Positions 13,703 through 60,129 of a stretch of DNA of 64,000 nt are shown in pieces. How positions within the stretch are numbered: the stretch's first letter is position 1; the number at the start of each line of letters is the position of its first letter. Under the pieces are notes generated by a model, which made no database searches, was not told the origin of the DNA, and saw only the letters and a program-made list of their open reading frames with translations. The stretch lies in the NCBI RefSeq assembly GCF_003334765.1, contig NZ_QOWT01000008.1; one strand, 5' to 3'. The translations under genes were made by a program, and so were the position numbers. This DNA comes from Escherichia coli (GTDB lineage Bacteria > Pseudomonadota > Gammaproteobacteria > Enterobacterales > Enterobacteriaceae).

Positions 13703-14757
<1,055 letters not shown>

Positions 14758-14802
14758 TTACTTGCGGTAGAAAAATAAAATTCGGCGCAATTCTAACAGG
14801 GA

Positions 14803-14818
14803 AAGCAAACGTTTGCGA
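14803..14818. promoter_or_regulatory. PurR operator (pur box) of purMN
   Basis: AAGCAAACGTTTGCGA with perfect palindromic core GCAAACGTTTGC, about 65-80 bp upstream of the purM start. Confidence 0.7.
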
Positions 14819-15015
14819 GACTGCTTTACACAACCTTTTTGCACGTCTTTTCCCCAGGCGCGCGGCGAAAGAAGACTTGTGCCAGGGTAAAGGTTAGTTT
14901 TCGGATGGAATAATCTTCTTTCATAACCATCTGAATATAAAATAACTTTATCTCAAACCGTTATCATTTTGACTAAAGTCAACGAAAAGAATATTGCCGC
15001 CTTGAAGAAAGGAGG

Positions 15016-15037
15016 TATAATCCGTCGATTTTTTTTG
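15016..15037 (+). promoter_or_regulatory. upp promoter -10 (TATAAT) and initially transcribed GATTTTTTTTG tract
   Basis: TATAAT at 15016-15021 followed by CCGTCG and an 8-T run; matches the upp UTP-sensitive start-site selection / reiterative transcription arrangement. Confidence 0.65.
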
Positions 15038-15063
15038 TGGCTGCCCCTCAAAGGAGAAAGAGT

Positions 15064-15690
15064 ATGAAGATCGTGGAAGTCAAACACCCACTCGTCAAAC
15101 ACAAGCTGGGACTGATGCGTGAGCAAGATATCAGCACCAAGCGCTTTCGCGAACTCGCTTCCGAAGTGGGTAGCCTGCTGACTTACGAAGCGACCGCCGA
15201 CCTCGAAACGGAAAAAGTAACTATCGAAGGCTGGAACGGCCCGGTAGAAATCGACCAGATCAAAGGTAAGAAAATTACCGTTGTGCCAATTCTGCGTGCG
15301 GGTCTTGGTATGATGGACGGTGTGCTGGAAAACGTTCCGAGCGCGCGCATCAGCGTTGTCGGTATGTACCGTAATGAAGAAACGCTGGAGCCGGTACCGT
15401 ACTTCCAGAAACTGGTTTCTAACATCGATGAGCGTATGGCGCTGATCGTTGACCCAATGCTGGCAACCGGTGGTTCCGTTATCGCGACCATCGACCTGCT
15501 GAAAAAAGCGGGCTGCAGCAGCATCAAAGTTCTGGTGCTGGTAGCTGCGCCAGAAGGTATCGCTGCGCTGGAAAAAGCGCACCCGGACGTCGAACTGTAT
15601 ACCGCATCGATTGATCAGGGACTGAACGAGCACGGATACATTATTCCGGGCCTCGGCGATGCCGGTGACAAAATCTTTGGTACGAAATAA
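15064..15690 (+). CDS. upp: Uracil phosphoribosyltransferase
   Basis: ORF track 15037..15690 begins at an in-frame GTG; true start [16 protein letters not shown] (208 aa) has SD AAAGGAGAAAG upstream. Confidence 0.95.
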
Positions 15691-15775
15691 AGAATAAAAA
15701 TAATTAAAGCCGACTTTAAGAGTCGGCTTTTTTTTGAGTAAAGCGCCTATAACACATAATACAGAGGATAATACT

Positions 15776-17065
15776 ATGACGCGCCGTGCTATCGGGGTGA
15801 GTGAAAGACCGCCACTTTTACAGACAATCCCGCTTAGTTTGCAACATTTGTTCGCCATGTTTGGTGCAACCGTCCTGGTGCCCGTCTTATTTCATATTAA
15901 CCCGGCGACTGTACTGTTATTTAACGGTATTGGAACGCTGCTGTATCTCTTCATCTGTAAAGGGAAAATTCCGGCTTATCTTGGTTCCAGCTTTGCCTTT
16001 ATTTCACCGGTATTGTTACTGTTGCCGTTAGGGTATGAAGTCGCGCTGGGCGGCTTTATTATGTGCGGCGTGCTGTTCTGCCTGGTTTCTTTTATCGTGA
16101 AGAAAGCGGGGACCGGCTGGCTGGACGTGCTGTTTCCACCTGCGGCAATGGGCGCAATCGTTGCCGTCATCGGTCTGGAGCTGGCGGGCGTAGCTGCCGG
16201 TATGGCGGGTTTACTCCCGGCTGAAGGGCAAACGCCAGACTCCAAAACCATCATCATCTCTATTACCACCCTGGCGGTCACGGTTTTAGGTTCCGTGCTG
16301 TTTCGTGGTTTCCTGGCAATTATCCCGATTTTAATTGGCGTGCTGGTGGGGTACGCGCTCTCTTTCGCAATGGGAATTGTCGATACCACGCCGATTATTA
16401 ATGCTCACTGGTTTGCGCTGCCAACCCTCTATACGCCGCGCTTCGAGTGGTTTGCCATTCTGACTATTCTGCCAGCGGCGTTAGTGGTTATTGCCGAACA
16501 CGTAGGGCACCTGGTAGTAACGGCTAATATCGTCAAAAAAGATCTGCTGCGCGATCCAGGTCTGCACCGTTCGATGTTTGCTAATGGCTTGTCGACCGTG
16601 ATTTCCGGCTTCTTTGGCTCTACGCCAAATACTACTTACGGAGAAAACATTGGCGTGATGGCGATCACCCGTGTTTACAGTACCTGGGTTATCGGCGGGG
16701 CGGCGATTTTCGCTATCCTGCTTTCCTGCGTCGGTAAACTGGCTGCCGCTATCCAGATGATCCCATTGCCGGTGATGGGCGGCGTTTCGCTGCTGCTTTA
16801 TGGTGTCATCGGTGCTTCCGGTATTCGTGTTTTGATCGAATCGAAAGTGGATTACAACAAAGCACAGAACCTGATCCTGACTTCCGTGATTTTGATCATC
16901 GGCGTCAGTGGCGCGAAGGTAAACATCGGCGCGGCGGAGTTAAAAGGTATGGCGCTGGCGACCATCGTCGGTATCGGCTTAAGTTTGATCTTCAAACTGA
17001 TCAGTGTGCTGCGCCCTGAAGAAGTGGTGCTGGACGCAGAAGACGCGGATATAACAGACAAATAA
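15776..17065 (+). CDS. uraA: Uracil:H+ symporter
   Basis: ORF track 15734..17065; start reset to [21 protein letters not shown] (429 aa); polytopic NCS2-family membrane protein. Confidence 0.93.
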
Positions 17066-38148: not shown

Positions 38149-38164
38149 ACGCAAACGTGTGCGT
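38149..38164. promoter_or_regulatory. PurR operator upstream of purC
   Basis: ACGCAAACGTGTGCGT, near-perfect pur box directly downstream of a TATGAT -10-like hexamer; about 150 nt upstream of the purC ATG. Confidence 0.6.
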
Positions 38165-59880: not shown

Positions 59881-60129
59881 AGTTTAGCTGCAATATATTA
59901 GTAAAGCTTATTACTGAGTTTGCGAATAATAAAAAAAAGCAGTCTATATAATATCTCGATATTATTTTATTTATATTCATGCGTTGCATATGAAAGTTTA
60001 TGCACCACAGCGAATATCTCTCCATTCTTAGTGATCTACCTCACCTTTTAAACGCGCTTGCCGAATTTTGTTATTTACTCTGACGAAAAATTGTCACGAT
60101 ACACGAAAGTTTTTCACAGGCGGCGACTC

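What the first reader, a model, noticed from the sequence alone, without database searches (positions are those of the whole stretch)
15016..15037. upp initially transcribed T8 tract (GATTTTTTTTG)
A TATAAT hexamer is followed by an 8-T run ending 26 nt before the upp ATG. This is the arrangement used for UTP-sensitive start-site switching and reiterative transcription.
Basis: partly seen in the sequence, partly recalled or inferred. Interest (0 to 1): 0.25.

Follow-up and report, generated by a model that had tools for sequence, protein, structure and literature searches.

The report
Known upp promoter T8 slippage tract

Summary
TATAAT lies at 15016-15021, then CCGTC, G (15027), A (15028), T8 (15029-15036) and G (15037), upstream of the upp ATG at 15064. 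The only slip is the distance: 27 nt separate the last T from the ATG, not 26.

The window is E. coli K-12-type chromosome, 100% identical to MG1655 here (ppk1-purN-purM <> upp-uraA-hda). The 11-mer GATTTTTTTTG is quoted in the literature as the upp-uraA initially transcribed region that undergoes UTP-dependent reiterative transcription with UTP-sensitive start-site switching (Tu & Turnbough 1997; Cheng, Dylla & Turnbough 2001).

- **Conservation:** 97 of 120 species-representative genomes have TATAAT-N5-G-A-T(6-10). These cover the Enterobacterales apart from a few host-associated lineages and two cut-off loci.
- **Position:** the run is fixed relative to the -10 hexamer but lies 25-163 nt from the ATG. 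Conservation collapses immediately after the run.
- **Exclusions:** there is no Rfam match, no significant leader fold and no hairpin before the run.

One minor new point: among about 5,425 complete E. coli genomes the run is T8 in 4,939, T7 in 440 and T9 in 21. T7 is roughly 40 times more frequent here than at two control T8 runs, so the length polymorphism is genuine.

Interest is low.

The parts
14994..14999 (+). -35-like hexamer TTGCCG of the upp promoter, 16-bp spacer to the -10
   Evidence: Consensus scan, 10 of 12 matches together with the -10. This region is only weakly conserved in other Enterobacterales. The assignment is by consensus only.
15016..15021 (+). -10 hexamer TATAAT (perfect consensus)
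   Evidence: It is invariant (2.0 bits at every position) in 97 of 97 Enterobacterales upp promoters that carry the element.
15022..15026 (+). G+C-rich discriminator CCGTC between the -10 and the start sites
   Evidence: Relatives have CCCGC, CCGGC or CTCGC at the same length. Mean information over the six positions after the hexamer (these five plus the start-site G at 15027) is 1.5 bits.
15027..15027 (+). G, 6th base after the -10 ('G6'): the upstream alternative start site. It is favoured at low UTP, and its transcripts are mostly elongated productively.
   Evidence: The position is read from the sequence. The role comes from Tu & Turnbough 1997 as I recall its abstract; the paper is not held, and its title is seen. 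G is present here in 96 of 97 relatives.
15028..15028 (+). A, 7th base after the -10 ('A7'): the downstream alternative start site. It is favoured at high UTP, and its transcripts (AUUUU...) slip and are aborted.
   Evidence: The position is read from the sequence. Position 7 is the modal start-site distance for sigma-70 promoters (PMC5730371). A is present in 94 of 97 relatives. The role comes from the published work.
15029..15036 (+). T8 run (T.A tract) of the initially transcribed region: the slippage site for repetitive UMP addition
   Evidence: PMC7039003 quotes 5'-GATTTTTTTTG for upp-uraA. Run length in 97 species is 7 in 44, 8 in 39, 9 in 12, 6 in 1 and 10 in 1. Information is 1.99 bits over T1-T7. 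In E. coli the run is T8 in 4939, T7 in 440 and T9 in 21 genomes.
15037..15037 (+). First non-T base (G) after the run; adding it ends the slippage-prone stage
   Evidence: The base is G in 77, A in 18 and C in 2 of 97 relatives. The functional statement is inference.
15038..15063 (+). Remainder of the short 5' leader, with Shine-Dalgarno GGAG at 15053-15056
   Evidence: The fold is no better than shuffles, z = +0.87. There is no Rfam match. It is poorly conserved, about 0.3 bits.
15064..15690 (+). upp coding sequence (208 codons plus stop), uracil phosphoribosyltransferase
   Evidence: ORF list. RefSeq annotation WP_001295473.1 at the equivalent MG1655 position.

Best explanation
This is the sigma-70 promoter and initially transcribed region of the E. 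coli upp(-uraA) operon, which encodes the pyrimidine salvage enzyme uracil phosphoribosyltransferase. RNA polymerase bound at TATAAT (15016-15021) can start at G6 (15027) or A7 (15028). When UTP is high, starts at A7 predominate. The nascent AUUU... transcript pairs only through weak A.U/U.A pairs with the T.A tract, slips backwards repeatedly, acquires extra U residues (AUUUUn) and is released without reaching upp. When UTP is low, starts shift to G6; these transcripts largely escape slippage and are elongated into upp mRNA. upp is thus repressed by pyrimidine sufficiency without a repressor protein. Shown here: the exact anatomy, identity with the studied locus, and conservation of the geometry. 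Taken from the literature: UTP dependence, the two start sites and the fate of the transcripts.
For: (1) Anatomy: TATAAT-CCGTC-G-A-T8-G at 15016-15037, 27 nt before the upp ATG, with a -35-like hexamer at a 16-bp spacing. (2) Identity: 100% match to MG1655 and presence in 5,425 of 5,426 complete E. coli genomes, with upp annotated downstream. (3) Literature: PMC7039003 lists 'upp-uraA (5'-GATTTTTTTTG)' among promoters whose reiterative transcripts are long and do not switch back to canonical transcription. [quoted passage not shown] PMC6245113 lists upp among the first UTP-dependent reiterative-transcription cases. The titles of the primary papers appear. (4) Start-site geometry: sigma-70 holoenzyme prefers to start 7 bp after the -10 at a purine on the non-template strand (PMC5730371); here positions 6 and 7 are G and A. 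(5) Conservation: 97 of 120 species-representative genomes keep TATAAT-N5-G-A-T(6-10). The -10 is invariant, the G is kept in 96 of 97, the A before the run in 94 of 97 and a run of at least 7 in 96 of 97. Information is about 2 bits through the run and falls to about 0.3 bits right after it. (6) The run keeps a fixed distance from the -10 while its distance to the ATG varies from 25 to 163 nt. It is therefore tied to initiation, not to the ribosome-binding site.
Against: No tool result contradicts it. The two primary papers and the Turnbough reviews are not held, so the G6/A7 details rest on my recollection of their abstracts plus secondary citations. A few relatives depart from the canonical start-site pair: E. 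albertii has T at position 6, Photorhabdus has G at position 7, and Ca. Pantoea persica has no A. The exact switch therefore may not be universal.
Confidence: 0.95

Rival explanations
1. The T run is an incidental homopolymer in a short 5' leader with no regulatory role. The TATAAT is a promoter, but the run is neutral.
For: T8 and A8 runs are about ten times more common in this window than a mononucleotide model predicts. 7 of 100 shuffles give at least one TATAAT-N5-8-T6 match.
Against: The run is kept at 7 or more T in 96 of 97 species, at a fixed offset from the -10, while the adjacent leader diverges to about 0.3 bits. Published mutagenesis carries the title 'A long T.A tract ... is required for regulation'.
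Confidence: 0.01
2. The U8 stretch acts mainly at the RNA level, as a U-rich 5'-leader element such as a ribosomal protein S1 or Hfq landing site, or an mRNA stability determinant, that tunes upp translation rather than initiation.
For: G6-initiated mRNA would carry GAUUUUUUUU at its extreme 5' end, 16 nt upstream of the Shine-Dalgarno sequence. Nothing here excludes an additional RNA-level effect.
Against: The distance from the run to the ATG varies from 25 to 163 nt, whereas its distance to the -10 is constant. Pectobacterium and Brenneria tolerate 72-136 nt inserted between the run and the ribosome-binding site. The leader has no significant structure. The published mechanism accounts for the regulation.
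Confidence: 0.03
3. The T run is the tail of an intrinsic terminator, attenuator or riboswitch in the leader, or ends transcription coming from upstream.
For: T8 runs elsewhere in the window do follow hairpins, for example at 15706-15735 after upp.
Against: No terminator-like hairpin precedes 15029-15036 on either strand. No Rfam family matches the leader even at E <= 1. The leader folds no better than shuffles. The run starts only 7 nt after a perfect -10, so it lies at the 5' end of the transcript.
Confidence: 0.005
4. The conserved block from about -9 to +15 is the operator of a DNA-binding regulator such as a pyrimidine-responsive repressor, and the T run is part of its site.
For: The conserved block also includes AAAA and GGCGG just upstream of the -10, which core promoter needs do not obviously explain.
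Against: The block has no dyad symmetry, as read. The literature describes pyrimidine control in enterobacteria as working mainly without repressors (PMC13328217; PMC6524683). The PurR-like box in this intergenic region lies 200 bp away, on the purM side.
Confidence: 0.015

Closest known systems
E. coli K-12 upp (upp-uraA) promoter, Tu & Turnbough 1997; Cheng, Dylla & Turnbough 2001
   Same: It is the same locus and sequence. The match to MG1655 is 100%, and the 11-mer GATTTTTTTTG is quoted for upp-uraA in PMC7039003.
   Different: Nothing differs. This is the studied element itself.
E. coli codBA promoter (ITR 5'-ATTTTTTG), Qi & Turnbough 1995
   Same: UTP-sensitive start-site switching is coupled to non-productive UTP-dependent reiterative transcription in a long T run, controlling a pyrimidine salvage operon.
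   Different: The run is shorter (T6), the gene is different (cytosine permease/deaminase) and it is not in this window.
E. coli pyrBI promoter (ITR 5'-AATTTG), Liu, Heath & Turnbough 1994
   Same: UTP-dependent reiterative transcription yields aborted AAUUUn transcripts.
   Different: The run has only three T's. High UTP acts directly at a single start site without start-site switching. It is combined with a leader-peptide attenuator.
B. subtilis pyrG (ITR 5'-GGGCTC), Meng, Turnbough & Switzer 2004
   Same: Nucleotide-sensitive reiterative transcription at the start of the transcript regulates a pyrimidine gene.
   Different: The slippage adds G residues, is productive, is triggered by low CTP, and works by preventing formation of a downstream terminator hairpin. 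The upp slippage is non-productive and there is no attenuator in the E. coli leader.

Membership tests
UTP-sensitive start-site switching plus non-productive reiterative transcription (upp/codBA class) | A sigma-70 promoter whose -10 places the start site(s) at the 5' edge of a homopolymeric T run on the non-template strand | tested here: met
   TATAAT is at 15016-15021 and the T run starts at the 8th base after it. A -35-like hexamer lies at a 16-bp spacing.
UTP-sensitive start-site switching plus non-productive reiterative transcription (upp/codBA class) | Two adjacent purine start positions within the preferred start-site window, the downstream one followed directly by the T run | tested here: met
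   G at position 6 (15027) and A at position 7 (15028). The start-site preference for position 7 and a purine comes from PMC5730371. The pair is conserved in 93 of 97 relatives.
UTP-sensitive start-site switching plus non-productive reiterative transcription (upp/codBA class) | A long T.A tract; published work states that a long tract is required at upp | tested here: met
   T8 at 15029-15036. Relatives have 6-10 T, with at least 7 in 96 of 97. The requirement is stated in the title of Cheng et al. 2001.
UTP-sensitive start-site switching plus non-productive reiterative transcription (upp/codBA class) | Identity with the experimentally characterised locus | tested here: met
   100% identity to E. 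coli K-12 MG1655 across 14750-15100. upp is annotated downstream. The 11-mer is quoted in PMC7039003.
UTP-sensitive start-site switching plus non-productive reiterative transcription (upp/codBA class) | UTP-dependent shift of start site and production of AUUUUn transcripts that are not elongated | not testable with these tools
   This needs 5'-end mapping or in vitro transcription. It is reported in the literature (summaries); the primary papers are not held.
UTP-sensitive start-site switching plus non-productive reiterative transcription (upp/codBA class) | The controlled gene belongs to pyrimidine metabolism | tested here: met
   The downstream genes are upp (uracil phosphoribosyltransferase) and uraA (uracil permease).
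Intrinsic terminator / leader attenuator | A G+C-rich hairpin immediately 5' of the T run | tested here: not met
   The scan of 14600-15900 finds terminator-like sites only at 15706-15730. The leader fold has z = +0.87.
Known cis-regulatory RNA family (riboswitch, leader) | A match to a curated covariance model | tested here: not met
   No Rfam match in 14600-15650 at E <= 1. The only sub-threshold hits lie on the hairpin after upp.

The most novel reading that the evidence does not exclude
The T-run length at the upp start site may be a naturally variable setting rather than a fixed feature. In E. coli it is T8 in about 91%, T7 in about 8% and T9 in about 0.4% of complete genomes. T7 is found on both common flanking haplotypes and is about 40 times more frequent than T7 at two control T8 runs. 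Recurrent slippage mutations, or a maintained polymorphism, could tune basal upp expression, and hence uracil salvage and 5-fluorouracil sensitivity, between lineages. Across Enterobacterales the run ranges from 6 to 10.
Probability: 0.25. Interest if true: 0.3.

Novelty: already known. Interest (0 to 1): 0.08.

Why it matters
The element is one of the classic examples of gene regulation without a regulator protein. RNA polymerase senses the UTP pool directly, through its choice of start site and through transcript slippage. Recognising it in the window confirms that the first-stage reader can identify such elements from sequence alone, but it adds no new biology for E. coli K-12. First, the whole -10/G/A/T-run geometry is conserved across most Enterobacterales. 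Second, the run length is genuinely polymorphic within E. coli. Both could feed a comparative study of how tract length sets the regulatory range.

Tried and rejected
**Papers not available.** The primary papers (PMC179593, PMC94869) and the Turnbough reviews (PMC2415746; PMC3083454, an id I guessed for the 2011 review) could not be read because they are not held. One find call failed on term length. The supplements of the 2025 nascent-RNA study (PMC12709180), which might have shown in vivo slippage at upp, are not held.

**Rfam.** A permissive scan of 14600-15900 found nothing in the leader. The only sub-threshold matches lie on the hairpin after upp.

**Leader fold.** The fold of 15027-15090 is no better than shuffles, so an RNA-structure explanation was dropped.

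**Terminator reading.** No hairpin precedes the run, so this was dropped.

**T7 alleles as assembly artefacts.** I first suspected that the E. coli T7 alleles were homopolymer assembly errors, because they occur on both flanking haplotypes in proportions similar to T8. This was rejected after controls. T7 at the T8 run inside the bepA coding sequence occurs in only 10 genomes, and at the upp-uraA terminator T8 in only 13, against 440 at the upp start site.

**Other.** One alignment call failed on a length limit and was redone in Python. An Rfam scan of the extended Pectobacterium leader gave nothing.

Full report
**Observation**

The bases at 15016-15037 read TATAATCCGTCGATTTTTTTTG. TATAAT occupies 15016-15021 and the 11-mer GATTTTTTTTG occupies 15027-15037, with the T8 run at 15029-15036. 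The upp ATG is at 15064, preceded by a GGAG Shine-Dalgarno at 15053-15056.

A consensus scan pairs the -10 with TTGCCG at 14994-14999 at a 16-bp spacing, matching 10 of 12 positions. The pattern TATAAT-N5-8-T6 occurs once in the window against 0.11 expected from shuffles. T8 runs alone are not unusual here: there are five T8 and two A8 runs. The significance therefore rests on the position of the run and on its conservation.

**What the locus is**

A 351-base query (14750-15100) spanning the intergenic region upstream of upp and the start of the gene is 100% identical to E. coli K-12 MG1655 and is present in 5,425 of 5,426 complete E. coli genomes. The RefSeq annotation around it is ppk1, purN and purM on one strand and upp, uraA and hda on the other, matching the ORFs in the window. 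The element is thus the promoter and initially transcribed region of upp, which encodes uracil phosphoribosyltransferase.

**Literature**

- PMC7039003 lists 'upp-uraA (5'-GATTTTTTTTG)' with pyrBI and codBA as E. coli promoters that engage in reiterative transcription. It says they make long reiterative RNAs and do not switch back to canonical transcription.
- PMC6245113 names upp among the first UTP-dependent cases.
- All three cite Tu & Turnbough 1997 (J Bacteriol 179:6665) and, Cheng, Dylla & Turnbough 2001 (J Bacteriol 183:221). The titles of those papers state the mechanism and the requirement for a long T.A tract.
- The primary papers are not held.

Three details rest on my recollection of the abstracts: the G6 and A7 start sites, the AUUUUn products, and the gradual loss of regulation as the tract is shortened.

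General start-site rules fit the G at position 6 and the A at position 7. The modal distance is 7 bp after the -10, with a preference for a purine on the non-template strand (PMC5730371).

**Comparative test**

I scanned one genome per species for the degenerate start of upp (MKIVEVKHP) and obtained 120 loci. Of these, 97 carry TATAAT-N5-G-A-T(6-10) upstream of upp. They come from Escherichia, Citrobacter, Enterobacter, Klebsiella, Kluyvera, Serratia, Yersinia, Rahnella, Pantoea, Erwinia, Dickeya, Pectobacterium, Brenneria, Hafnia, Edwardsiella, Proteus, Providencia, Photorhabdus, Xenorhabdus and others.

The 23 loci without the element break down as follows:
- Pasteurellaceae, Orbaceae, Thorsellia and Alkalimonas.
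- Two reduced endosymbionts.
- Two loci cut off at the ATG.

Across the 97 loci that have it:

| Feature | Result |
|---|---|
| -10 hexamer | TATAAT in all 97 |
| Run length | 7 in 44, 8 in 39, 9 in 12, 6 in 1, 10 in 1 |
| Base before the run | A in 94 |
| Base before that | G in all but one (E. albertii) |

Anchored on the -10, information content is 2.0 bits over the hexamer, 1.5 over the discriminator, 1.8 at the A and 1.99 over T1-T7. It then falls to about 0.3 bits in the leader.

The run sits at a constant distance from the -10 but 25-163 nt from the ATG. That ties it to initiation rather than to the ribosome-binding site.

**Rivals**

- **Terminator or attenuator:** no terminator-like hairpin precedes the run.
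- **Known RNA family:** no Rfam family matches the leader.
- **Leader structure:** the leader RNA folds no better than shuffles, z = +0.87.
- **Protein operator:** this is not excluded by sequence alone. It lacks symmetry and runs against the published repressor-free mechanism.

**Polymorphism within E. coli**

Exact-match counts with 66-68-mers centred on the run give T8 in 4,939, T7 in 440 and T9 in 21 of about 5,425 genomes.

T7 occurs on both alleles of a common flanking SNP: 241 with G14989 and 198 with T14989. Among T8 genomes, 2,139 carry T14989. The proportions are similar, which could indicate either recurrent change or assembly error.

Controls argue for a real polymorphism. A T7 version of the T8 run inside the bepA coding sequence (19820) is found in only 10 genomes. 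A T7 version of the T8 run of the hairpin after upp (15728) is found in only 13. The start-site run is therefore about 40 times more variable than comparable runs in the same assemblies. T7 is also the commonest state among other species, so it is presumably functional.

**Verdict**

The element is already known and is a classic case of regulation by the NTP substrates of RNA polymerase. The comparative conservation and the length polymorphism are minor additions. Interest is low.

Noticed in passing
window 15029-15036 (E. coli population): The T-run length is polymorphic among complete E. coli genomes: T8 in 4,939, T7 in 440 (including the type strain DSM 30083) and T9 in 21 (several O157:H7). 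T7 occurs on both alleles of the flanking SNP at 14989. It is about 40 times more frequent than T7 at two control T8 runs.
   Followed up: yes
L016 3971-4156; L034 2849-2725 (- strand); L067 1513-1637; L119 2549-2673; L121 158-36 (- strand): In Pectobacterium and Brenneria the upp leader keeps the TATAAT-G-A-T7/8 start but carries an extra insert of about 72 nt, duplicated in B. roseae. The insert has a short ORF in a conserved frame (MPAALRAAASGV*, MVIPPAVLRAAVNGV*, MAGVLSATLRAVTR*) that ends just before a short hairpin followed by a U run. This may be a leader-peptide attenuator added to the slippage tract. There is no Rfam match.
   Followed up: partly
L003 1862-1882 (Escherichia albertii NBRC 107761): The upstream start-site G is replaced by T (TATAATCCGTCTATTTTTTTTG). 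The G6 escape route of the published model would be missing in this species representative.
   Followed up: no
L010 3230-3211 and L059 4838-4819 (Photorhabdus); L018 1897-1878 (Ca. Pantoea persica): These carry variant start-site pairs. Photorhabdus has G-G before T7. Ca. Pantoea persica has G followed directly by T8, with no A.
   Followed up: no
window 14803-14818: A PurR-box-like palindrome, AAGCAAACGTTTGCGA, with 2 mismatches to ACGCAAACGTTTGCGT. It lies in the purM-upp intergenic region on the purM side and is presumably the purMN operator.
   Followed up: partly
window 38149-38164: A second PurR-box-like site, ACGCAAACGTGTGCGT, with 1 mismatch. It lies about 150 bp upstream of an ORF whose product begins [16 protein letters not shown], which I recognise as PurC.
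   Followed up: partly
window 15677-15735: A strong terminator-like hairpin (15706-15730) with its own T8 tail (15728-15735) sits between upp and uraA, although the two are described as one operon. A promoter-like site (TTGGTA-16-AATAAT, 15677-15704) lies just before it. The hairpin attracts several sub-threshold Rfam sRNA and leader hits.
   Followed up: partly
window 15037-15063: An in-frame GTG at 15037, the base right after the T run, extends the mechanical upp ORF to 217 codons. The annotated start, which is preceded by a Shine-Dalgarno sequence, is the ATG at 15064.
   Followed up: yes
window 59931-59952: An A8 run (59931-59938) lies 8 nt upstream of another perfect TATAAT (59947-59952). 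It is in the intergenic region between a maeB-like ORF and an ORF beginning [10 protein letters not shown], which I take to be eutS.
   Followed up: no
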